Source: Eledone cirrhosa (taxonomy: Eukaryota). Taken from it: a DNA stretch of 64,000 nt. Shown here one piece after another: positions 1 to 58,181 of this stretch. Each line of letters starts with the position of its first letter. The stretch's first letter is position 1. The position numbers and the translations under genes were made by a program. Below the pieces are notes generated by a model, which made no database searches, was not told the origin of the DNA, and saw nothing but the letters and a program-made list of their open reading frames with translations. The DNA lies in the NCBI GenBank assembly GCA_964016885.1, contig OZ024742.1:275652001-275716000 (forward strand), given 5' to 3'.

Positions 1-872
1 AAGTTTCTAGTTGATAAGAAAATTAGGATGTGTGATTCAATCCGGAGTTATGTAAGAGGTGTTTCGAGACGTGTGGACAACGTGTGAAGAATTCATTTCT
101 CGTGTTTAGGCAATCACTATTGCATAATCTCTTTAGAATATTTATTCGTTCATCAATACATAGACCACACGACGAGTTTCCCCTTGCGTATGGCTTGGAC
201 TTAGTGATGGCTTTCCATTGAATGGAGTAGTCTATACTTGAGTCCTTGAGGGATCATACGTGGCTCGCGAGTTTCGTGGATGAACGTCTGTCCGGGTACC
301 TAAAGGTCGACTGGTGGTTCAGAAAGCGTTCCTTAAATCGGCCCTCTGCCATACCCACATAGGATTTGACCTCCTGTGGTTGATTTGGTCGGTTGGAAGT
401 GACCACAGCTTCATAAATTACAGCGGGTGCGTTGCATTGCTGTTGAAGGGGACAAGCTTCGGGATTACGGCAAGAGCACCCTGGTGGGGTGTTGCTCTTA
501 GGGCTGTTGGTGATGTGGGCCTTCATGTTCTTAGCGCAGGGGTATCCTAGTTTTACTTTGTGTCGGTTAAAGATGGAGCGGTATTTATGACCTATGGGAA
601 AGTGTCTATCTAAGAGAGCTAGAAATGTTTGCCTACATTAGTTTTAACGTTGAGTGAGAAGGGAGGAGAGAACCAGATAGTTTGTCTATTGTTACGCTTT
701 CTTTTCTTATTGCTGTTGTTGATAGTGTGAGAGTAAGTGATAGGTTGCGAGAAGCCGCTGTTAGCTAACGCCGTGTTATAGTAGGGTGCCGCCCTGTCAA
801 AGATAGCCTTATTAGAGGAGAGGTTTGAGATTCTAGTACTGATATTATTTACGAAGTTTCTAAAAACAGTGG
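1..872 (-). mobile_element. Penelope-like retroelement fragment (RT thumb/linker + GIY-YIG endonuclease), frameshifted
   Basis: ORF 254-526 has CSCRNPEACPL...VIYEAVV...YVGMAEGRFKERFLNHQSTF (GIY-YIG with Cys linker). Upstream minus-strand sequence reads like RISNLSSNKAIFDRAAPYYNTALANSGF, as in the PLE at 29232-31634. Confidence 0.85.
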
Positions 873-6180: not shown

Positions 6181-6254
6181 AGGTGAATTTGTAAGCTAAT
6201 TCACCTCTAGAGGTGAATTTGTAAGCTAATTCACCTCTAGAGGTGAATTAGCTT
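6156..6254. repeat. About 3 x 30-bp tandem repeat ending in a perfect 32-bp palindrome (6223-6254)
   Basis: Unit aatttgtaagctaattcacctctagaggtg; aagctaattcacctctagaggtgaattagctt is its own reverse complement. Confidence 0.9.
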
Positions 6255-7334
6255 CCTGGTCCTATTCTTGCGGGGTTGTTGGGTGTCCGCTGTGGGCCAT
6301 TGCGTGATTGTGCACAGCTCAGGTCGAGCTCGGTTGGTGTCACTCGGGTGTGCGGAGCGGTCACTATCATGAGGGTTATATGGGCCCACCGTGGGGCTAT
6401 AAATCTGCGAGGTGCGGCCTCCCTGCTCAATTAGGGTTCGGCGGGTGGTGGGGCCGGTGCAGGGGTGCCTATGCTCCGCAGCACAGTGGTCTTCAGCGTT
6501 GTAGGTATTAGACCGGTGGGGTATGCGGGACCTTCTACCGGGGGTGGTGACGGATAGGGGTCTGGGAGTGTTACTACTGGTCACCAAGGTATTAGGTGGG
6601 CAACTCATGCCCCTGAGGGTATTGGTCCGGGGTACCCTTGGGTCATCTCGATCATGTCCCTTAGGGTTATAGCTGATCCTATGGCTGTGGGACGCCTTAG
6701 CTAGCGCTGAGTTATAGTAATCAGCGTTACTATTGAAGATCTCTTTATTGGCCGACAAGTTAGAGATCCTGTCAGAGACACTCTTAACTACGGCCTTAAC
6801 CATAGATCTAGGGTGATTAGACCCAGCGTTGATATACACCAGCTTCTCATTGGGTTTATGATATGGGTGGTGTAGCTTGGTGTTGAGGTTGAGGGTGGTG
6901 TCCAGGAAATTCACTACTTTTCTATTGGGTTCCATCTCTACCTTAAGTCCTACCTTGCTAAAGAAGTGCCTAATTCTCCTCTTCATATTTTCGACCATTG
7001 TGGTGCTGTGGTCCACTACGATGAAGAGTGTGTCGTCTCGGTACAGCCCGCCACCCAGGTTGGGTATTTCTCTACTGATCTCGTAGAGTATGTATATCCC
7101 AACCAAGTCCGTTAGCTGCGCGGAGTCACTGGAGCCCATTGTAATGTCAAAGTTATTTGGCCAGTCGCTCCGGGTCCATATGTCCCCACCGAATCGGATC
7201 AGGGTCTTTCTGGCGGCGTGTTTGATTCGGACCTCGTCGCATGTTAGGTCTGTCCTATTCATCGCGAATATGAGTGCCTTGTTCAGGACTATGGGCAAGA
7301 TAGAGGAGTAGTAATTGTTGATGTCTAGTTGCAT
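6237..7334 (-). mobile_element. Penelope-like reverse transcriptase fragment (365 aa), 5'-truncated at a TA-rich tract
   Basis: QLDINNYYSSI, FDITMGSSDSAQLTDLVG, GGLYRDD, VNFLDTTLNL, YINAGSNHP: PLE RT motifs, clearly homologous to 29730-31634. Confidence 0.92.
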
Positions 7335-7448
7335 ATATTAATACATACATACAGTATATATATATATTTATATATAACCAAAGGTTAATATGGTTCGTTA
7401 ATTATTCAACGAATACAATTTTACAATAGATTAGAAGCACTCGACAGT

Positions 7449-26467: not shown

Positions 26468-26917
<450 letters not shown>

Positions 26918-27907
26918 GTTTCCAAAGTTACTGGAAATCTCAAAATGCGGACGAAACCATGGTAGAGGTAAATAAATGTATTCTATTTTCTCCTAGTTTA
27001 TTTTACACCTAATTCTGTTTAATTGACTGTATCTGGGCGATTACGCTGTCGAAATATTCGATAAATATTCCGTTGCGGTCGACGCGAAGGGCTAGTTTCG
27101 GTTATTTGTTGCAGATTTTTTCATAGAAGCCTTATTCTTATAGCCTGGTCTATTCGATTTTTTATATAGTTAATTATCCTAATTGGGAGAGGAAATGGTA
27201 TATATTTTATCTGGTGATTCTATAGACATGTTTTATGATATATAGCTCTGATTATTTAATTTATTAACTTTTCATTGAGCCACAAAGTGACTCGTTGCAA
27301 AACACGTATATGTATGTATGTATATATATATATATGTAAACCTTTATATGTAATAATCTCCCATTAGGTTGAGATACAAATTTGGCTGTATTGTGCTGTG
27401 CTTTCTAGCAAAAAGCCACCAGCCGTAAGCAACTACCACATCCCTTCCAACCTGACCGCTGCTACGTCACGATTCTTAGCCATTTTTAAATGAATTCTTG
27501 GCACGATCACTTTGGAAAATTTAATGTCTGGATTAGAGCAAAACTCCTGAAGAGTCCGATGCTCGAGTTTCCAAAGTTACTGGAAATCTCAAAATGCGGG
27601 CGAAACCATGGTAGAGGTAAATAAATGTATTCTATTGAGGTAAATAAATGTATTCTATTTTCTCCTAGTTTATTTTACACCTAATTCTGTTTAATTGACT
27701 GTATCTGGGCGATTACGCTGTCGAAATATTCGATAAATATTCCGTTGCGGTCGACGCGAAGGGCTAGTTTCGGTTATTTGTTGCAGATTTCTTCATAGAA
27801 GCCTTATTCTTATAGCCTGGTCTATTCGATTTTTTATATAGTTAATTATGCTAATTGGGAGAGGAAATGGTATATATTTTATCTGGTGATTCTATAGACA
27901 TGTTTTA

Positions 27908-27912
<5 letters not shown>
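26918..27912 (+). mobile_element. Non-coding hammerhead-bearing element with ~325-bp direct repeats (26918-27243 / 27567-27912), ~650-bp periodicity, flanked by (TA)n
   Basis: gtttccaaagttactggaaatctc...catgttttatgata occurs twice, near-identical. No ORF in the track. Confidence 0.75.
27544..27616 (+). ncRNA. Type I hammerhead ribozyme with extended stem II
   Basis: ctc-CTGAAGA-gtccg...gagtttcca aagttac tggaaatctc...cgggc-GAAA-ccatgg-TA-gag. Palindromic stem III accatggt. Confidence 0.8.
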
Positions 27913-27969
<57 letters not shown>

Positions 27970-28000
27970 AGATCAAAAGATGGTTAAAGGAGTTCCATGT

Positions 28001-28069
28001 ATTTTATTATGCGCATTTCAAAAACAAACATCATCATGCAATAATATTTGTGTTTTCATCAGATAAAAC
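28001..28069 (-). ncRNA. Type I hammerhead ribozyme in the inverted pLTR copy
   Basis: Reverse complement of 28961-29029. Confidence 0.85.
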
Positions 28070-28960
28070 AGGAGAACATGATATGAAGGCTAAAAAACAC
28101 TTGTGGATAGTGCAGTTTTAAATCAACATATGAAAAGTGGTTTTAGATTGATGTGTGATATTGGGAAAAATATTTTAGTTAGAGGGGGGGTGAAAAAGGG
28201 AAGGAGATGAGAGGGAGAGATGGGTGATAGAGAGAAAGAGATAGTTTTTATAACTGAGAGAAGATATATTGTTTTATATAGAGAGGTTGAAAACCGTTGG
28301 AAGATAATGTATAAATTAAAAGAATTTGAAAATTAGCGAAGGGAAAGATATGTACGAGGAAAAAATATTTTATTTAGGGAGGGGGGGTGGAAAGGATGAA
28401 AAAAGGGGGAGGAGATGAGAGTGAAGGTGGAGAGGGAGAGATGGGTGATAGAGAGAAAGAGATAGTTTTTATAACTGAGAAAAGATATATTGTTTTACAT
28501 AGAGAGGTTGAGAACCGTTGGAAGATAATGTATAAATTAAAAGAATTTGAAAATTAGCGAAGGGAAAAATATTTGCGAGGAAAGAGAGGGAGTTTATGTA
28601 TGAAGATAGAGAGAAAAAAATAATAATTGTGGATGAATATTCTAACGCGAAAAAGGTGTATGTTGATAAGTATTGTGGCAATTTCAAAATTAACGAAGAG
28701 AAAAAAAAATTATTAAGGTTTGTGTGTAGAAGGATTTGAGAAAAATAATGTGAAGTTAAAGTTTGTATATTGAAGGAATTGATAATATGTGCGAAGAACG
28801 AGTTAATATGTATTAAGAATGAGTTCGTTGATGAGGAGAAAAAAATAATAAATAAAATATTTTTCCCAATATCACACATCAATCTAAAACCACTTTTCAT
28901 ATGTTGATTTAAAACTGCACTATCCACAAGTGTTGTTTAGCCTTCATATCATGTTCTCCT

Positions 28961-29029
28961 GTTTTATCTGATGAAAACACAAATATTATTGCATGATGAT
29001 GTTTGTTTTTGAAATGCGCATAATAAAAT
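28961..29029 (+). ncRNA. Type I hammerhead ribozyme in the 5' pLTR
   Basis: gttttat-CTGATGA-aaacacaaa tattattgcatgatgat gtttgttttt-GAAA-tgcgca-TA-ataaaat. 7-bp stem I, long stem II, palindromic stem III atgcgcat. Confidence 0.88.
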
Positions 29030-29231
29030 ACATGGAACTCCTTTAACCATCTTTTGATCTTATATTATGTATACTCCAGTCCTACAAACTGTAGAGTGCT
29101 TCTTATCCGATATCTGCATTGCTTTATTGTACTACAATAAAACTCACCTCCTACATTAACTTGCTCCTTAACGGTTGAGCGCTTACTCTTATATTGGATA
29201 CCTTTTGATGGTCTTTTACTTCTTCTACAAC

Positions 29232-31634
29232 ATGGATTATTACAACATAACCAATTCAACTAAAGACATTCCTATACCTGGTAAATCTGAATTCACCAAA
29301 CTTCTTATTGAAAAAACTGACTCCTTCGTAAGAAGACTTAGATGGACAGCCTATTTCTATGACCAGCGCCTAAAAGGGAACTTCCATACCTAAGAACATA
29401 ACTTCCTCGATCATCTATTTAATTCTAGACGAAATCCTCCTTCCAACAAAAATCTAGTACAATTCGAGGAAGAATTAACTAAAATAATAAAAAATCTTAA
29501 ATTCAAGAGATACCCTTACAAAGGACAAGAGCACCTTGTAAATCTCAAGAACACAATTTCTAACCTAAATTCCTCAAAAAATGTTTTAGTCCACTCTGAC
29601 AAAACCAATAACTTATATGGTATTTCCAAGGATAATTATAACAACCTTATCCTAAAGGAACTTAGGAAAAAGTATCGTAAAACCAACCATGAAAATTTAG
29701 AATACATAAACCTTGAAGCCTCTGAGATTATGTCAAAACTTGGCATTGAAAAAAAGACCGAACCATTCCTCCCAAGAACTCCGAGGATAAATCTCAAGGA
29801 TCACAAAAACAATTTTCGCACTGAACTACCTGTTAGATTAATCGCCCCCTCTAAATCTGATCTGGGGGTTGTTAGTAAAGCCATCTTGGATAGAATTATC
29901 CCACAGGTTAGTTCTAATTGCTCTTCTTTGAACCTAAATTTATGGTTTGGTACTTCTGAAGTGATTGGCTGGTTCAACAAATTGGATAATAAAAACAAAC
30001 TAAAATTTATTCAATTTGATATTGCCAGCTACTATTCCTCCATTTCGCCTTCACTTCTCAATAATGCTCTATCTTTCGCACTTAAATATTCTGACATCAC
30101 CACAGATGAACTTCACATCATCCTCACCGCACGTAAAACCATCCTAGAGTTCAACAACGAATATTGGACCAGAGCCGATACCTCTAACAACTTCGACATC
30201 ACAATGGGAGCATCCGATTCATCCCAATTGACTGATTTAATTGGTATCTTTATTTTGAACTCTTTGAGTCGGAAAATTCCTCAACTTCGCGGTGGAATTT
30301 ATCGTGACGATGGACTCTTTACTATCTTAAATTGCAATATAGTTAACCTTAATATTATTAAGAACAATATACGTAATCTCTTTAACCAACATAACCTAAA
30401 AATTGAATTTGATAATAGTATCAAACTAGCTAATTTCTTGGATGTATCTCTTAATCTTGACACTGGCCTATATTACCCTTACCATAAAAACAATGAGAAC
30501 CTAAATTATATTAACTTTAAATCTAACCATCCTACCAATATCAAGAATGCTATAGTTAGTAATATTGGAAAAAGAATATCTAACATATCTTCTAATAAAA
30601 ACATCTTTGATGCTAACGCCAATTACTATAATAACGCACTTTCTAAAGCTGGCTATCCAGATAAAATCAAATATAGTAAAGAAACAAATTCTAGAAAAAC
30701 TTACAGTAGAATAATTAATCATGATCATTCCAATAATTTTAATAAAAGACCTAGATACAAAAACATAATCTGGTATAATGCTCCTTTCTCCATCTCTATT
30801 AATAACAATATTCCTAAATTATTTTTTAGTGCCTTAAATAAATGCTTCCCTCCCTCACATATCTATAGTAAAATATTTAACAAACACACCATCAAATTTT
30901 CGTATTCTACATCCTCCAATATTTCCAACATCATCTCTAAACACAACAATAAAATACTAAATACTAAATCTCTTCCTTCCAACATTGAATTTCATAATAA
31001 CAGCAATAGTACTCCAGACGTCATTGTAAACCCTAGGCTAACTTCTGTAAACCCAAATACAACGTCAAACACAACTTCGCTAAATGTTCATAATCCAACT
31101 CTAAATCAAGAAACTATTATTCCTATTATTCCTATCGCAAACAACTTCTCCAATCCAATTCCTTCTATAGATAACACTAGGTCACTCATTAATAATCTCT
31201 CTAATTGCAACTGCCGCATTAAAAATAAATGTCCTCTCAACAACCATTGTCTTGATAAAAACTTAATTTATGAATGTAAAGTAATAACTAGCACCAATTC
31301 CTTCACCTATTTTGGCTCCACTTCCACCTCTTTTAAAGCTCGTCTCTATAATCACCATTCATCTTTCAAATACAAACTTAAAAGAACCAACACGGCTCTC
31401 TCAGAACTCATATGGTCCTTGAAAGACAAAAACATTAAATATACCATCTTTTGGAAGAAGGTTTCTTCTGCATCCTCATACTTGAACAGCTCTCTATCTA
31501 AAATCTGTAATCTCTGCCTAAATGAAAAATTTACCATTATCTCTAATCTAGATTCTATAATAAATAGACGTACAGATTTGTTTTCTATCTGCCTGCATAA
31601 ATTCCATAGGACTTTTCACAAAGTATACAGTTAA
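29232..31634 (+). CDS. PLE polyprotein (RT + C-terminal GIY-YIG), 800 codons with one internal TAA at 29391-29393
   Basis: ATG 29232 (MDYYNITNSTKDIPIP...FVRRLRWTAYFY) is in frame with ORF 29730-31634; I translated 29394-29729 and found it open. Motifs: QFDIASYYSSI, ITMGASDS, GIYRDDGL, FLDVSL, SNHP, CNCRIKNKCPL, LIYEC, YFGST, CNLCLNEK. Confidence 0.9.
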
Positions 31635-32715
31635 TATTCAATTCTTTATCAATTTAGAATCTTTTCTCAAAGGCACATATACATACACCTCTTTAAAATA
31701 TACCCATCTTCCTACCTTACTTTAAAGGGCATTATACACTCTATAATACTTGTTTACTCATTACCCTCTTTCTATCTTCACCTTGTAAAATCCTTCATAA
31801 CATATACATTTGTTTTTTTGACGTTAGAATATTCATCCGCAATTATTATTATTTTTTCTCTCTATCATAAAACTTTTCAATCTCAATTTCATCCTTAATT
31901 TATTATTTTTTTATTATTATTTTTTTCTCCTCATCAACGAACTCATTCTTAATACATATTAACTCGTTCTTCGCACATATTATCAATTCCTTCAATATAC
32001 AAACTTTAACTTCACATTATTTTTCTCAAATCCTTCTACACACAAACCTTAATAATTTTTTTTCTCTTCGTTAATTTTGAAATTGCCACAATACTTATCA
32101 ACATACACCTTTTTCACGTTAGAATATTCATCCACAATTATTATTTTTTTCTCTCTATCTTCATACATAAACTCCCTCTCTTTCCTCGCAAATATTTTTC
32201 CCTTCGCTAATTTTCAAATTCTTTTAATTTATACATTATCTTCCAGCGGTTCTCAACCTCTCTATATAAAACAATATATCTTTTCTCAGTTATAAAAACT
32301 ATCTCTTTCTCTCTATCACCCATCTCTGCCTCTCCACCTTCACTCTCATCTCCTCCCCCTTTTTTCATCCTTTCCACCACCCCCCACCCCCTCCCTAAAT
32401 AAAATATTTTTTCCTCGTACATATCTTTCCCTTCGCTAATTTTCAAATTCTTTTAATTTATACATTATCTTCCAACGGTTTTCAACCTCTCTATGTAAAA
32501 CAATATATCTTCTCTCAGTTATAAAAACTATCTCTTTCTCTCTATCACCCATCTCTCCCTCTCATCTCCTTCCCTTTTTCACCCCCTCCCCCCCCCCCCT
32601 CTCTAAATAAAATATTTTTCCCAATATCACACATCAATCTAAAACCACTTTTCATATGTTGATTTAAAACTGCACTATCCACAAGTGTTTTTTAGCCTTC
32701 ATATCATGTTCTCCT

Positions 32716-32784
32716 GTTTTATCTGATGAAAACACAAATATTATTGCATGATGATGTTTGTTTTTGAAATGCGCATAATAAAAT
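32716..32784 (+). ncRNA. Type I hammerhead ribozyme in the 3' pLTR
   Basis: Identical to 28961-29029. Confidence 0.88.
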
Positions 32785-32909
32785 ACATGGAACTCCTTTA
32801 ACCATCTTTTGATCTTATATTATGTATACTCCAATCCTACAAACTGTAGAGTGCTTCTTATCCGATATCTGCATTGCTTTATTGTACTACAATAAAACTC
32901 ACCTCCTAC

Positions 32910-32945
<36 letters not shown>

Positions 32946-32952
32946 ATATATT

Positions 32953-32993
<41 letters not shown>

Positions 32994-32997
<4 letters not shown>

Positions 32998-33908
32998 ATA
33001 CATTAACAGAGAAAGCTTTAAGCAATACTCTGACCAGCTTCCATCTCACTCAACAAACATTAGAATATACCTTAGTATAATCCCAATTTTACGTTTGGGG
33101 TGCTAACTATATGTATTTTGCGGATAGCCAGTTGTATTATTTTATATGAGACATAATTAAAATACATCTCCCTTTCCAAACAATTGTTTCATTATAAGTT
33201 TTCTACAAGTTGGGAACATGTGTCCAGGTTATGTAGAAGCCTACACATAGTCCGTAGGAATATATGCAGGTGGGCACTTATAAATCAACAGTGGATGTCC
33301 GTCAAACATCGATATAAAAAAAATCTTCTTACCGATATCCAATGTTCAGCGACGGTCCCCTTCCGTGTTAGAATGACCGCCAAATTTGAAATTCCAGCAG
33401 TCTCAGAATGATAAATTTCACACTGTCATCAAGCGGAAAGGGAAGGTCATCGCAAAACACAAGAAAAGAAAATAATATGCACGCGGGTCAATTAATTCTT
33501 TCAATAATTTTAACCTTGTGTGTGAAGAACTCAATTAGATTTTAAAAAATAAATATATGCATGTATTATTTATACACGTATATAGGTATTTTCTTAGGCT
33601 AAAAACAGAGATAAGATACCAGAATAAAAATCAATATTTCATACAAATAATAAATACGGAAAGTTACACTTAAAAGGTATCTGGAAATATTCATCTCTGG
33701 CCAAATCAAGAGTATAATATTTAATACATTAACAGAGAAAGCTTTAAGCAATACTCTGACCAGCTTCCATCTCACTCAACAAACATTAGGATATACCTTA
33801 GTATAATCCCAATTTTACGTTTGGGGTGCTAACTATATGTATTTTGCGGATAGCCAGTTGTATTATTTTATATGAGACATAATTAAAATACATCTCCCTT
33901 TCCAAACA
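32994..33908. mobile_element. ~915-bp non-coding element with ~190-bp direct terminal repeats, flanked by (TA)n
   Basis: tttaatacattaacagagaaagc...ccctttccaaacaa at 32994-33183 and 33720-33908, near-identical. Confidence 0.7.
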
Positions 33909-34710
<802 letters not shown>

Positions 34711-34816: not shown

Positions 34817-35860
34817 TAATATTGAATATTGGTGCTCTTCAGGTGAGAGATGTAACTAGTTAGGGACGTGGTATTCTTAAGTCTATCATGACTAAACGTA
34901 TAACTATGGGAGTTGTACCTAATCTTAAAGGAGGTCGATGTAGATCCTATATATGTTTTGGAAGAGGTCCGAGTTGTAACTCCACAAGCGTAGATAATAT
35001 TGTTTATAAGGGATAACCCCTTCAGGGGGCACTCCGCCTTTCGTATACAGTTACAGTTGCGGTGTATGTTATTATTAACTCCCATCGTTATACGTTTTGA
35101 CATGATAGACTTAAGAATACCACGTCCCTATATAGTTACATCTCTCACCTGAAGAGCACCAATATTCAATACATGCTTAATTGGATAGTTATCACTAAAT
35201 CATTGCCGTACAGACCCCCTAGCAAGACTTGTAACCTTTGTCTCTCTGAGTCACACGCCATATTATACTCGAAACTGAACCTGTTAAAAAGGAAATCAGA
35301 GATATTCTCCTCTTACCCGCACATAAATCTTAGCTCCTTCTGTTACTTTAGACCGATTAGCTAACGCTGTAGGACATGCGTAAAACCACGCCACCCATAA
35401 TCGTAATTCCTCTGTAACCATAACTGGAAAATGTAGGCTCACATTACCCATTAGATAACCATATACGACACAAAACCCTCCTATAGCAAACTTGTACGAC
35501 ATGACCTGCTTCGGCACCTCATGCTTTGTTTGTTTTTTGATCATGCTAAGTAACACCCTCATTCATTTCTTGCTCTCCTCTCTCAACTCCCTTATGATCT
35601 ATTGCACCATTTATGTGATAAACTTTTGACGTAATTTTTTATGATGTAAATTTTTTTATGATGTAATTTTTTGTGACATTAAATGTATTATGTATTGTGT
35701 GCCCCCCTACTTCTCCTTCCTTGTTCTGGTGACTAGGCTCGATGGAGCCTGCAACCTTTGATATACTTTTGTTTATAGGCTCTGTTTATAGGGTATTGAT
35801 GAAACAATGTGAGCAAATAAAACAATGTATTTCTAAGCACTCTTTGGTTATTCCTAAACT
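34817..35860. mobile_element. PLE 3' fragment with internal inversion: GIY-YIG N-part on minus (34817-35103), C-part and 3'UTR on plus (35105-35860)
   Basis: CNCIRKAECPL...IIYAC...YIGST...FKIRYNSH (minus) and TCNLCLSE...LLKRKSEIFS (plus). 34817-34885 is the revcomp of ~35100-35170. Confidence 0.8.
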
Positions 35861-44132: not shown

Positions 44133-46512
44133 GGCATTACCATGGTATTAGCTGTCAGAAGTGAAAGTAGGCGAAGATGATGTCATTCGTCAACCTTCTC
44201 AATCGTAAACATCGTTTATTTCCGTATTACCACGCGTTATTTTTGGCAGTATCGGTAGAGGGTCGGACGCCATGCTTTCCAGCATAGTTACGTCCTTTAC
44301 GATCTGAGTTCAAATCCCGCCGAGGTTGACTTTGTCTTTCATCCTTATGGGGTCGATAAAATAAAGTACCACTAATGCACTGGGTAATTGCTGGCCTTGT
44401 GCCAAAAGTAGAAACAGTTATTTTAATAAAGCATATCGATGTAAGTGGAGTTACTTAAATGAAAATATAGGTGGCCCTTAAAAGGGCCAAATTAGAAAAC
44501 AATTTAAGTTAATTAATAAACAAGTCATGGTTATCAATGTTCATGGTTATCAATGTAGAAAACAAGTCATAAATTTAAGTTTTATAATCAAATTTTTTTC
44601 ACCAACAGTGGAGTTAACTTAAATGAGTTAACAAATTAGAAAAAAAATTTAAGTTAATTAGAAAACAAGTCATGGTTATCAAATAAATTTGATTTATTCA
44701 TTTATATTTTCATAGTCATGATATCAATGTAGAAAACAAGTCATAAATTTAAGTTTATAAAAATATATATGGTTATCAAATTATTCACCAACCTTATTCA
44801 AAAGCATGGATACAGATGACGAATATGTTCTAAAGGCCAAATTAGAAAACAAATTTAAGTTAATTATAATTAGTCAATGTAGAAAACAAGTCAGAAATTT
44901 AAGTTTATAAAAAAATATATGGTTATCAAATTTTTTTCACCATTTATGAAGAAATGTTTAGAAACATTTTTTTCACCAACCTTATTCAAAAGCATGGATA
45001 CAGATGAATATGTTCTAATAACTTTTGGAAAATTTCACCTTTAAATTCATACCGCCACATGAATTCAATTAGATGGGTTTGAAGCAAATTTCTGGCTGAT
45101 CCGTTTTCCCTTTTATTCCTATTCTTTACATGTTTCCACAAGCATTCTGTGATTCATTGTGGCAAATGTTACAGGATCAACAAAATTGATGGAATGGTTC
45201 AGTCAAATGTTGATAGCCTAGCTGATCGATCGTATTATAGGAGCGCCATAGATCAGATATTATAGTTGTGCCAAGCAATATACGATCCTGTATAATGGCT
45301 AAAAGTGTCTCTGCTGTCCGATCTTCTACTGCTACTAAAAAACATCTGGTACCTCTTTCCAAATCACCAAAGACCCCGTGTTTTCACCAGATGGCCAACA
45401 TGGTATTTCCTTCTCACAAAGGTGCTTTCGTCAATTCGGTTTGGCCTGCCAAGCTTAATGTTTTGTGCCATATAATACTCTGCACATACATCAAGGCAAA
45501 AATTTCGCCAATCTGCTACAGCCACATTCGCGATACGACATTCCTGTGAAATCTTCTTGGCTAAATCTTCTTTTACCCAAAAATACAATATATCAACTAT
45601 TTGTTCACACTTCAAATTACTATGTTTTAGAAATGTGCTTTTCTAATCGACACCCGTTTTCTACATGGTCTTCCACATGACCAGATAATCCCATCTGACA
45701 CATATTTTTCGCTACTTCCAACATGCGTTCACCACATGAAGGGCAGACCTTTTGTGTATTCAGAAGTCCATGATTTTTCAACCAATTGATGGTATCTGCT
45801 GTAGTAGCGGTAGCGATGGAAAGATCGCGATGGTTAATTCCATTAACACTTGGGTATATTGTAGAATTCATATTTTTCAACTTGCAAATGCGTGTATTAT
45901 CACAAAGTGAAGATTAAAGTTTATTTATTTACATGTGGTGTTGGTGATGATTATTGCTGATTGGTGGGGATTGTCTCCATGGAGACTGTCTCCATAGCGA
46001 CTGTCTCTTGTCTCCATGTGGATTGTATCCATGCTTTTGAATAAGGTTGGTGAAAAAAATTTGTTTTCTAAACATTTCTTCATAAATGTATAGGGTTGGT
46101 AAAAAAAATTTGATAACCATATATTTGTTTTCTAATTTGGCCCTTTTAAGGGCCACCTATCATCATCATCATCAGGTTTAGCGTCCGTGTTCCACGCTTG
46201 CATTTTTCATTTAAGTTAACTCCACTGTTGGTGAAAATGACTTGTTTTCTACATTGATAACCATGACTATGAAAATATAAATGATTAAATCCAATTTATT
46301 TGATAACCATGACTTGTTTTCTAATTAACTTAAATTTGGCCCTTTTAAGGGCCACCTATATTTTCATTTAAGTAACTCCACTTACATCGATATGCTTTAT
46401 TAAAATAACGCGTGGTAATACGGAAATAAACGATGTATACGATTGAGAAGGTTGACGAATAACGTCACTTTCGCTTACTTTCACTTCTGACAGCTAATAA
46501 CATGGTAGTGCC
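44133..46512 (-). mobile_element. Merlin (IS1595/ISXO2-like) DNA transposon with long TIRs, 8-bp TSD CTTTTTTT and frameshifted transposase
   Basis: TIR ggcattaccatggtattagctgtcagaagtgaaagt... / ...actttcacttctgacagctaataacatggtagtgcc. TSD 44125-44132 and 46513-46520. Transposase pieces 45177-45880: CPSCG, IDES.F.RRKYHVG, VEDRTAETLLAII...GTTIISDLWRSY. Empty site at ~60301. Confidence 0.92.
44245..44424 (+). mobile_element. SINE inserted into the left Merlin TIR (TSD-like gttatttt)
   Basis: Interrupts cgcgttatttt|aataaagcatatcg, which is contiguous in the right TIR. Confidence 0.88.
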
Positions 46513-56365: not shown

Positions 56366-57991
56366 TCAAAGTTTTCCAACAATGTGCATGTGCTTGTGTT
56401 TAGTTAGCGCTCTACTTTCAGAGAATGATTTACGACAGATATCACAATGATATGGCTTTTCGCCTGTATGCATACGTTTATGTATAATTAAGGTACTATT
56501 TCGAGAATATGATTTACCACAGATATCACAGGGGTATGGCTTGTCTCCTGTATGAATATATTTGTGGGTTGTTAAATCACCACTTTGAGAAAACGATTTA
56601 CCACATATGTCACAGTAAAATGGCTTCTCTCCCGTATGAGTACGTATGTGAGTTGTTAAGGGAGTTTTATCAGAGAATGATTTACCACAAATGACACAGA
56701 GATATGGCTTCTCACCCGTATGAATGCGTCTATGTCTAGTTAAGACATTTATATGAGAAAACAACATACCACAGATATCACAAAGATACAATTTATCTCT
56801 TGTATGAATAAGTTTGTGTTTAGTTAAGTCACCGCTTCGAGAGAAGGATTTACTACATATGTCACAGTCATATATCTTTTTACCTCCATGAGTAAGTTGG
56901 TGCAGTGTTAATGCAGCATTTTGAGCAAATGATTTACCACAGATAACACATACATATGGCCTCTCTCCTGTATGAATACGTTTATGATTGGTTAAGGTAC
57001 CGCCTTCAGTGAATGACTTACCACAGATATCACAGTGATAAGGCTTCTCTCCTGTATGAATGCGCTTGTGTGTAGTTAATTTATTTTCTGTAGAAAATGA
57101 TTTACCACACCTGTCACATTGGTATGGCTTTTCTCCTGTATGAGTACGTTTGTGTATAGTTAATTTAGTATTTGTAAAGAATAATTTACCACAGATGTCA
57201 CAATGATATTGCTTTTCTCTTGAATGAAGGAGTTTGTGCTTAGATAAGTGACTAGTTACAGAAAAAGATTTACCACAGGTATCACAGTGATATGGCTTTT
57301 CTCCTGTATGAGTACGTTTGTGTATAGTTAATTTAGTATTTGTAAAGAATGATTTACCACAGATGTTACAGTGATATTGCTTTTCTGCTGAATGAAGAAG
57401 GAGTTTGTGCTTATATAAGTTACTACTTACAGAGAAAGATTTGCCACAGGTATCACAGTGATATGGCTTTTCTCCTGTATGAGTACGTTTGTGTATAGTT
57501 AATTTACTATTTGTAAAGAATGATTTACCACAGATGTCACAGTGATATGGCTTTTCTCCTGTATGAGTAGATACGTGTCTCTGTAACTCTGAATTTCGGG
57601 AGAATGATTTACCACAGACCTCACAGCAATATGGTTTTATTCCTGTATGAATGCTTTTGTGAGGTATCAAGTTATGTTTTTGGGAGAATGGTTTACCACA
57701 GATATCACAGTGATATGGCTTCTCACCTGTATGAGTACGTATGTGTGCAGTTAACTTTCCATTTGCAGAAAATGTTTTACCACAGATGTCACAGTGATAT
57801 GGTTTTATTCCTGTATGAATACGTTTGTGTTCAGTTAATATATTATTTTGAGAGAAGGACATACCACAGATATCACAGTGATATGGCATCTCGCCTGTAT
57901 GAGTACGCATGTGTACAGTTAAGTTTCCATTTGTAGAAAATGTTTTACCACAGATGTCACAGTTCAGTTCATGAAAATTCAGTTTGGACAA
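56366..57991 (-). CDS. C2H2 zinc-finger protein, 19 tandem fingers in one exon (start uncertain; possibly pseudogene)
   Basis: 19 CxxC-x12-Hxxx(x)H units with TGEKPY-type linkers. The track start is TTG. First in-frame ATG is at 57910; the upstream ATG at 58102 is separated by TAA 58093-58091 and TAA 58054-58052. Confidence 0.88.
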
Positions 57992-58181
57992 TGATTTACC
58001 AATGATATCACAATGGTATAATGTTTTTACTATCTCGTTCAGTAACTCACTTTAAGACTCCGATTTAATCTTAACCTGTTTCTTCCATAATTACTTTTCC
58101 ATAATATCTCTTTTTTATATCTATAGATGTAAAATATAGATGATGCATCTGATGTAAAGAATTCTTTAATGCCAATGTCAT

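What the first reader, a model, noticed from the sequence alone, without database searches (positions are those of the whole stretch)
27963..32911. Young, nearly complete Penelope-like element with three identical hammerheads and a single nonsense codon
Seen: (TA)n - inverted ~890-bp 3' copy - ~300-bp pLTR - 800-codon ORF - 3'UTR - pLTR - (TA)n. The ORF track splits the protein, but 29232-31634 is one frame broken only by TAA 29391-29393. The two direct hammerheads (cleavage after 29022 and 32777) would release a ~3.75-kb unit RNA containing the whole ORF. Their palindromic stem III (atgcgcat) could pair between copies as a dimeric ribozyme. The N-terminal KDIPIP...RRLRW motif and CxCx5CPL linker resemble the Hydra clade of PLEs (from memory).
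Basis: partly seen in the sequence, partly recalled or inferred. Interest (0 to 1): 0.75.

Follow-up and report, generated by a model that had tools for sequence, protein, structure and literature searches.

The report
Penelope retrotransposon primed twice per insertion
This is a copy, disabled by one private stop codon, of a young Penelope-type jumping gene with about ten thousand insertions, whose two-armed insertions nearly always carry one long and one short end, which likely means that both broken DNA strands start copying the same RNA molecule at two fixed points about 83 bases apart.

Summary
In detail: (TA)n, inverted 3' arm, 308-bp pLTR, 800-codon RT-GIY-YIG frame with one TAA, pLTR, (TA)n, and three identical hammerhead motifs. 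The TAA is private (29 of 29 other copies have a sense codon; 17 of 39 have an intact ORF). Motifs place it in the Hydra clade of Penelope-like elements: a new, young family with about 10,600 exact ends of each type.

The copies record the mechanism. Ends fall at two fixed sites (A 32911, B about 32820). 65 of 67 outward-facing arm pairs have one A and one B end. Both arms share variants (856 of 872 polymorphic calls, 70% when shuffled) and stop together at a fixed RNA 5' end (44 of 45 pairs concordant). A arms sometimes stall at B. Best reading: twin priming on one RNA.

No arm starts at the hammerhead cut, so a cleaved linear unit is not the template. Long copies need a circle, a template jump or a read-through RNA; this is unresolved. 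Ribozyme activity is untested. The kind is known; the mechanistic evidence was not found in the papers searched.

The parts
27910..27962 (.). (TA)n target tract, left
27957..28857 (-). Inverted arm, equivalent to 31909-32828; its outer end is the short site-B end (no tail)
28000..28070 (-). Hammerhead motif, antisense copy (core 28062-28008)
28849..29156 (+). 5' pLTR (second-pass part of the direct arm); junction with the inverted arm has about 3 nt of exact overlap
28897..28904 (+). Inferred fixed RNA 5' end (peak 28899 = 32654-equivalent), likely a transcription start; untested on RNA
   Evidence: 46 of 181 terminal arms stop at 32652-32659, 23 at 32654
28960..29030 (+). Type I hammerhead motif: 8-bp stem I, CUGAUGA core, long AU-rich stem II, palindromic stem III; predicted cut after 29022
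29060..29156 (+). Site B (about 29060-29073, TA-like), 83-nt tail and site A (29156), read through in this pLTR
29232..31634 (+). Single 800-codon ORF: N-terminal region, RT (DKT, YRDD), thumb, N-rich linker, CxCx5C, GIY-YIG-type endonuclease
29391..29393 (+). Private nonsense codon (codon 54)
   Evidence: 29 of 29 other fetched copies have a sense codon
30966..31202 (+). Asn/Ser/Thr-rich disordered linker; thumb-to-CxC spacer 88 aa versus 14-37 in 24 of 25 homologues
31206..31232 (+). CxCx5C linker motif of the Hydra clade
31635..32603 (+). Long 3' UTR with an internal duplication (32181-32334 / 32410-32563)
32604..32911 (+). 3' pLTR with hammerhead (32715-32785, predicted cut after 32777), site B (about 32815-32828) and the long site-A end at 32911
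32912..32994 (.). (TA)n target tract, right

Best explanation
This is a copy, disabled by a private stop codon, of a young Hydra-clade Penelope-like retrotransposon family that sits in (TA)n and likely inserts by twin priming, in which both nicked target strands would start reverse transcription on one RNA molecule at two fixed internal sites about 83 nt apart. Shown in the copies: two fixed end sites, one of each per two-armed insertion, shared variants between the arms, shared 5' stops. Inferred: the endonuclease cuts both strands of a TA tract; one 3'-OH primes at site A and the other at site B, each helped by a few TA-like bases; the A-primed RT usually displaces the B-primed cDNA but sometimes stalls at B; the two cDNAs stop independently and are joined by microhomology or untemplated bases, which gives the head-to-head structure with a tail on one side only. 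Roughly 430-bp mini-palindromes would come from uncleaved RNAs that start at 28899/32654. Longer-than-unit arms need a template without that 5' end: most likely a hammerhead-made circle (about 45%), otherwise a template jump or a read-through RNA. Confidence by step: identity about 0.93, one-RNA twin priming about 0.7, circle about 0.45.
For: Identity: Hydra motifs, closest solved folds are TERT, purifying selection on the ORF (32 synonymous / 7 non-synonymous shared changes versus 125 / 322 singletons, p=3e-11). Ends: 181 of 182 terminal ends fall at A or B, 170 of 181 followed by TA-rich DNA; 10,636 A-type and 10,805 B-type exact ends genome-wide. Pairing: 65 of 67 outward pairs are A+B; an end-anchored, partly overlapping sample gave 41 of 49 (p=2e-6), 44 of 49 after inspection. 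One template: 856 of 872 polymorphic calls agree between arms versus 70% shuffled, and 59 of 295 rare variants are shared versus 1.3 shuffled; 0 of 25 informative insertions have arms from different subfamilies; arms stop short together (24 both short, 20 both long, 1 discordant, p=7e-12). Independent priming: the A arm is longer in 21, the B arm in 30, similar in 14 of 65. Collision: 6 of 23 other first-pass A-arm stops lie at site B (p=0.008, window chosen after the fact). Fits the in vitro result for an anole Poseidon element: both strands cut and extended, two internal start sites bounding the tail, uncleaved RNA used (PMC11167929).
Against: The rule is not absolute: 3 B+B and 2 A+A or unclear pairs of 49, and 48 terminal ends had no partner in the first count; of 24 of these examined, 5 had a short own A arm, 7 abut TA directly and 12 were other. 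Shared variants prove one source locus or one molecule, not strictly one molecule; later gene conversion between arms could add to the sharing. Two earlier unchecked notes report arms from different parents or families. The RNA 5' end is inferred from DNA alone. 5' versus 3' pLTR differences do not separate circle from linear template (p=0.25; p=0.71), and copy L067 has an A-to-G cluster in its 3' pLTR only, which a monomeric circle cannot give. The hammerhead shows no two-sided compensatory change and its covariation score is not above shuffles.
Confidence: 0.7

Rival explanations
1. Self-priming or fold-back: one cDNA (or an antisense RNA) folds back and is copied, and the endonuclease then resolves the hairpin with a staggered cut that leaves the tail on one side.
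For: Proposed for Penelope inverted repeats (PMC3846280) and for the tail (PMC8557442). It explains shared variants, and a CATATG palindrome sits at the centre of some mini elements.
Against: Fold-back from one start needs one arm nested in the other, but either arm can be the longer (21 versus 30). A-arm tails are present where the B arm is shorter than a unit and cannot supply them. Many mini junctions carry different untemplated bases, not a perfect palindrome. In L144 and L145 both arms exceed a unit.
Confidence: 0.12
2. Two RNAs, each primed once: a protein dimer holds two transcripts, usually of the same locus and perhaps paired through the palindromic stem III, and one subunit always uses A, the other B.
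For: It explains the A+B rule and the shared variants if both RNAs come from one locus. Two hammerheads co-fold favourably through the palindrome. Earlier unchecked notes describe ends of two families back to back.
Against: It does not explain why A arms stall at site B, nor why no arm that stops at 32650-32660 has a long partner (0 of 22 such pairs).
Confidence: 0.13
3. One reading: the two direct hammerheads cut out a 3755-nt linear unit that serves as mRNA and template.
For: The cut sites are one unit apart and bracket the whole ORF. Core positions are conserved and recurrent variants keep the stems paired.
Against: No arm of 206 starts within 3 nt of the cut, and none of 46 ORF-bearing arms does. 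Sites A and B lie downstream of the 3' cut, so a linear monomer cannot template a full copy. Mini elements are read straight through the cut site.
Confidence: 0.04
4. The TAA is a family feature (readthrough or two ORFs).
For: None beyond the single copy.
Against: 29 of 29 other fetched copies have a sense codon; 17 of 39 have an uninterrupted ORF; all contig depth at that place in runs X1 and X6 shows the other base.
Confidence: 0.01

Closest known systems
Hydra clade of C-terminal EN+ Penelope-like elements (Craig et al. 2021, PMC8557442), e.g. Hydra-1_Obim, Penelope-13_HM
   Same: Single ORF with RT then GIY-YIG; DKT; CxCx5C; no CCHH; CxxC and CxH around the conserved E and N; sense hammerhead in the pLTR; (TA)n target; Penelope-13_HM also has an inverted 5' copy.
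   Different: Unit 3755 nt versus 1080-3045 nt in the listed consensuses; RWT for RWK; long N-rich linker; long 3' UTR; hammerhead with a long stem II and an 8-nt palindromic stem III. About 45 of 102 residues match Hydra-1_Obim around DKT by eye, so it is a different family.
PAc / Poseidon_Ac of Anolis (Frangieh et al. 2024, PMC11167929)
   Same: Two internal RT start sites that bound the tail, both target strands extended, uncleaved RNA used as template.
   Different: Other clade; its sites lie inside the ORF and tails are put at 30-40 bp, here 83 nt in the 5' UTR. In the parts read, that paper reports no strand difference in start site and does not test pairing of sites within one insertion.
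Penelope elements of Adineta vaga (Arkhipova et al. 2013, PMC3846280)
   Same: Direct plus inverted pLTRs, a tail on one pLTR, Asn-rich inserts between RT and EN.
   Different: Low copy number; explained there by self-priming on an antisense template; inserts up to 1.5 kb.
LINE-1 twin priming (recalled, no call)
   Same: Two target 3' ends prime on one RNA and give a 5' inversion.
   Different: In L1 the second site is variable and the two cDNAs do not overlap. Here both sites are fixed and the cDNAs duplicate the 3' end.
PLE hammerheads and non-LTR retrozymes (PMC4209133; bioRxiv 10.64898/2026.07.22.740005)
   Same: Type I hammerhead with palindromic stem III thought to act as a dimer; a circle was proposed as template for more-than-unit copies.
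   Different: This element is autonomous; A-U in place of the usual G-C at the base of stem II; activity untested.

Membership tests
EN+ Penelope-like elements | Single ORF with a TERT-related RT | tested here: met
   YRDD at 357-360; model pLDDT 78.5; best Foldseek hits are TERT, E=8e-8. Pfam gave no significant hit on the protein.
EN+ Penelope-like elements | C-terminal GIY-YIG endonuclease | tested here: inconclusive
   LIY...YFG, then R, E and N motifs align with homologues and with the Hydra rows of the paper's figure by eye; no profile or fold hit to GIY-YIG was obtained.
EN+ Penelope-like elements | pLTRs from partial tandems, inverted 5' copy, optional tail | tested here: met
Hydra clade | DKG changed to DKT | tested here: met
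   D123-K-T; definition
Hydra clade | CxCx5C linker | tested here: met
   CNCRIKNKC at 659
Hydra clade | No CCHH in the endonuclease; CxxC and CxH around the conserved E and N | tested here: met
Hydra clade | N-terminal RWK motif, no GxKF/Y | tested here: inconclusive
   RWT here; most homologues have WK or WR at these columns; no GxKF/Y in the N-terminal region
Hydra clade | Hammerhead in the pLTR and insertion in (TA)n | tested here: met
   170 of 181 ends followed by TA-rich DNA
Hydra clade | Groups with Hydra in an RT tree against the other clades | not testable with these tools
   Named reference proteins were seen only as cut text in a supplement; the 10 homologue clusters looked up carry no names
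Naiad/Chlamys | N-terminal endonuclease | tested here: not met
   The endonuclease-type motifs are C-terminal
Penelope/Poseidon, Neptune, Nematis | CCHH motif with two Cys between GIY and YIG | tested here: not met
   definition
Active hammerhead ribozyme | Conserved core on a three-way junction | tested here: met
   Core intact, position 7 free to vary; 95.9% of cells paired in 32 variants, but no two-sided changes
Active hammerhead ribozyme | Self-cleavage | not testable with these tools
   Needs an in vitro assay; PLE hammerheads tested so far cleave weakly or need the protein

The most novel reading that the evidence does not exclude
Penelope-like elements insert by programmed twin priming: the two strands of a TA-tract break each prime at their own fixed site on one RNA, and one RT displaces the other's cDNA. 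This alone would generate the head-to-head arms, the one-sided tail and the mini-palindromes. A hammerhead-made circle would supply the longer-than-unit copies, while uncleaved linear RNAs supply the short ones.
Probability: 0.4. Interest if true: 0.75.

Novelty: new member of a known kind. Interest (0 to 1): 0.5.

Why it matters
How Penelope-like elements make their tandem and inverted structures and the one-sided tail is named as an open question in Craig 2021, and the published ideas differ: endonuclease resolution, antisense self-priming, circles, two internal start sites. This family is young (0.5% rare variants per base), has about ten thousand insertions and intact ORFs. Its copies give counts that favour twin priming on one RNA and exclude a cleaved linear unit. 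They also name exact sites (28899, 29022, about 29065, 29156) for a direct test. The single copy in the window is itself ordinary and cannot make full-length protein.

Tried and rejected
Rfam at gathering score: no hammerhead hit. Pfam on the protein and on 16 aligned members: nothing significant for the query. PDB by sequence profile: 0 hits. Sequencing runs: no RNA holder listed; contigs of four runs show no molecule ends, so expression, RNA ends and circles are untested. Homodimer prediction of residues 1-480 of a natural copy: no answer. Circle versus linear tandem by pLTR differences: not separable. A-to-G editing as a barcode of template molecules: only one cluster (L067) in the 105 loci plus window. 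Pile-up of second-pass 5' ends at site A: 5 of 46, weak and chosen after the fact. Covariation in the hammerhead: not above shuffles. RT tree against named clades: not run, no usable named references. The mismatch of left and right flanks was first read as a target deletion; the left flank turned out to be another repeat family inserted in the same TA tract. Earlier findings by place, by sequence and by a second word set: none.
Full report
1. Observation. The anatomy is as described. Frame 29232-31634 has 800 codons and one stop at 29391-29393. Three identical hammerhead cores lie at +28968-29022, +32723-32777 and -28062-28008, and the two direct ones are 3755 nt apart. The pLTRs (28849-29156, 32604-32911) differ at 2 of 308 bases, and the inverted arm 27957-28857 equals 31909-32828. 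(TA)n tracts flank both ends. The host is a 3.0-Gb genome. Earlier unchecked notes speak of an octopus family; I did not test the host.

2. The stop codon. A search with the first 469 ORF bases gave 941 candidates, of which 40 were scored and 30 fetched. The window copy has TAA; the other 29 all have AAA. Of the 39 other scored copies, fetched at 10 kb, 17 have an uninterrupted ORF of at least 780 codons; these were the best hits, so this is not a genome-wide rate. Shared ORF polymorphisms are 32 synonymous to 7 non-synonymous, singletons 125 to 322 (p=3e-11), so the lineages that spread kept a working protein. Rare variants run at 0.52% per base (1178 in 226,196), a young family. Only 4 ORF positions of the window copy are found in no other sampled copy.

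3. Identity. Craig et al. 2021 define the Hydra clade by an RWK motif, DKT, a CxCx5C linker, loss of CCHH, CxxC and CxH around the conserved E and N, a hammerhead and (TA)n targets (section 11). DKT, CxCx5C, loss of CCHH, CxxC and CxH are all present; RWK reads RWT. Unnamed homologues are 32-39% identical, and the predicted fold is closest to TERT. The one cephalopod Hydra family in their supplement, Hydra-1_Obim, is 2507 bp, has another hammerhead, and matches about 45 of 102 residues by eye: a different family. This unit is longer than any listed Hydra consensus, through a long 3' UTR and an Asn-rich linker (88-aa spacer versus 14-37 in 24 of 25 homologues) that recalls the Asn-rich inserts of rotifer Penelopes. 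No RT tree against named clades was run.

4. Hammerhead. The core, an 8-bp stem I, a long stem II and the palindromic stem III are present, with 4882 exact genomic copies of the 61-nt motif. Among 75 distinct variants position 7 varies and the core is nearly fixed. In 32 rows (the window plus 31 of the 35 most divergent variants; 4 left out) 95.9% of cells pair, and eight pairs show recurrent one-sided changes that keep pairing. There is no two-sided change and the covariation score is not above shuffles. Folding z-scores are weak and Rfam is silent. Two copies co-fold at -34.7 versus 2 x -11.3 kcal/mol through the palindrome, the known dimer arrangement. Activity is untested.

5. Two fixed ends, one of each per insertion. 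I read the 39 ORF-anchored loci, the window, and 66 loci covering the first 100 exact hammerhead matches on contig C1 (33 outward pairs, 1 direct pair, 0 inward, 32 single). Of 182 terminal ends, 78 fall at site A (32911), 103 at site B (32815-32828, blurred because the site is TA-like) and 1 elsewhere; 170 of the 181 are followed by TA-rich DNA. Of 67 outward-facing pairs, 65 are A+B, 1 is B+B, 1 is B plus the odd end, and none is A+A; 48 ends were unpaired. Of the 24 unpaired ends in the C1 set, 5 B ends have an own A arm too short for my anchor, 7 abut TA directly and 12 are other; one locus (L082) holds a B arm misread as A and a true A+A pair. Genome-wide there are 10,636 exact A-type and 10,805 B-type ends (the B count includes some read-through arms of an older subfamily) and 182 exact read-through junctions. 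An end-anchored sample that partly overlaps the first gave 41 A+B, 6 B+B and 2 A+A (p=2e-6); on inspection 3 of the B+B were A+B, which leaves 44 of 49. The window copy itself is B on the left and A on the right.

6. One template, two primers. The arms of an insertion agree at 856 of 872 polymorphic calls (shuffled mean 70%, maximum 80%) and share 59 of 295 rare variants (shuffled 1.3, maximum 12). None of the 25 insertions with at least 8 informative sites has arms from different subfamilies. 46 of 181 arms stop at 32652-32659, 23 of them at 32654, and such stops come in pairs: in the C1 set 24 pairs are both short, 20 both long and 1 discordant (p=7e-12); no arm that stops there has a long partner. 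These roughly 430-bp mini-palindromes have varied, often untemplated junctions, so many arose independently at a fixed RNA 5' end, likely a transcription start (inference). Either arm can be the longer (A 21, B 30, similar 14), which excludes fold-back from a single start. Six of 23 remaining first-pass A-arm stops lie at site B (p=0.008, window chosen after seeing the data), as expected if the A-primed RT runs into the B-primed cDNA on the same RNA. This extends the in vitro finding for an anole Poseidon element of two internal start sites, extension of both strands and use of uncleaved RNA.

7. What the hammerhead does. No arm of 206 starts within 3 nt of the cut (the C1 set was chosen for at least one intact motif), and none of 46 ORF-bearing arms does. 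A and B lie downstream of the 3' cut, so a cleaved linear unit cannot template a full copy. Long arms ignore the 32654 stop on their second pass: 20 of 46 run upstream of 28899 and none stops at 28895-28905. Arms reach about 1.5 units, both arms exceed a unit in L144 and L145, and none of the first 100 of 182 read-through junctions lies in direct tandem. This fits a hammerhead-made circle, as proposed in 2014, but also a template jump between pLTRs or read-through RNAs; pLTR differences do not decide. One copy, L067, has 11 A-to-G changes in 32681-32792, including the cut-site base; the 10 that overlap its 5' pLTR are absent there. That looks like RNA editing of a linear template and cannot come from a monomeric circle; it is a single case.

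8. Against this reading. Exceptions to A+B exist (about one in ten in the end-anchored sample). Shared variants could reflect two RNAs from one locus. Earlier unchecked notes report arms from different parents or families; I found none among 25 informative insertions, but my anchors see only this family. All RNA-level steps are inferred from DNA.

9. Literature. PMC8557442: passages, section 11, a supplement search and one supplement part. PMC11167929: parts 1-2 of 4 of the text; its supplementary figure on genomic ends was not seen and may bear on the pairing rule. PMC4209133 and PMC3846280: passages. bioRxiv 10.64898/2026.07.22.740005: abstract and discussion; supplements not seen. A tail at one end only is in print as 'often'. 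Seven searches listed no paper whose listing or passages read state a one-A-one-B rule or twin priming on one RNA for these elements; subscription papers are not covered. L1 twin priming is recalled.

10. Verdict. A real, young, high-copy new family of a known clade. The window copy is disabled by a private stop. The value lies in the family's insertion record, which makes an open mechanistic question directly testable. Interest 0.5.

Noticed in passing
window 26917-27916 (+): A separate repeat of about 660-nt unit in partial tandem between (TA)n tracts, with its own hammerhead-like motif at 27547-27613 and palindromic stem III; no ORF of 150 codons or more there. 3107 genome candidates, tandems up to about 2.5 units, and in the five inverted pairs readable from the listing one arm carries a 50-70-nt extension and the other does not: likely a non-autonomous PLE derivative or retrozyme with the same one-tail rule.
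   Followed up: partly
window 32991-33909: A second partial tandem (198-nt repeat, spacing 726) between (TA)n tracts; no canonical hammerhead found by my scan.
   Followed up: no
window 6240-7337 (-), hammerhead-like motif at 5459-5425 (-): Fragment of a second Hydra-like element, 50% identical over 230 residues.
   Followed up: no
window 71-855 (-) and 34819-35310: Further fragments similar to the thumb and endonuclease part; the one near 35000 lies in a 95-bp inverted repeat.
   Followed up: no
L067:4284-7995 (G000:C1:406753264-406763263): Cluster of 11 A-to-G changes in the 3' pLTR only, including the hammerhead cut-site base; possible RNA editing fixed by reverse transcription.
   Followed up: partly
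L144 and L145: Insertions with two longer-than-unit arms in inverted orientation, one ending at A and one at B.
   Followed up: partly
window 44449-44493 (-) and 46333-46377 (+): Two identical Rfam histone 3' stem-loop hits at the gathering score, inside an inverted repeat of about 200 bp; possibly ends of another repeat, not histone genes.
   Followed up: no
window 56369-58051 (-): 561-codon frame with an 84-bp period, a C2H2 zinc-finger array by eye.
   Followed up: no
window 29208: An in-frame ATG 8 codons upstream of 29232 and several short upstream ORFs after 28899; the homologues align from the 29232 start.
   Followed up: no
runs X5 and X6 (organisms B and C): Contigs of two other coded organisms hold pieces mostly 90-100% alike to this family.
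   Followed up: no
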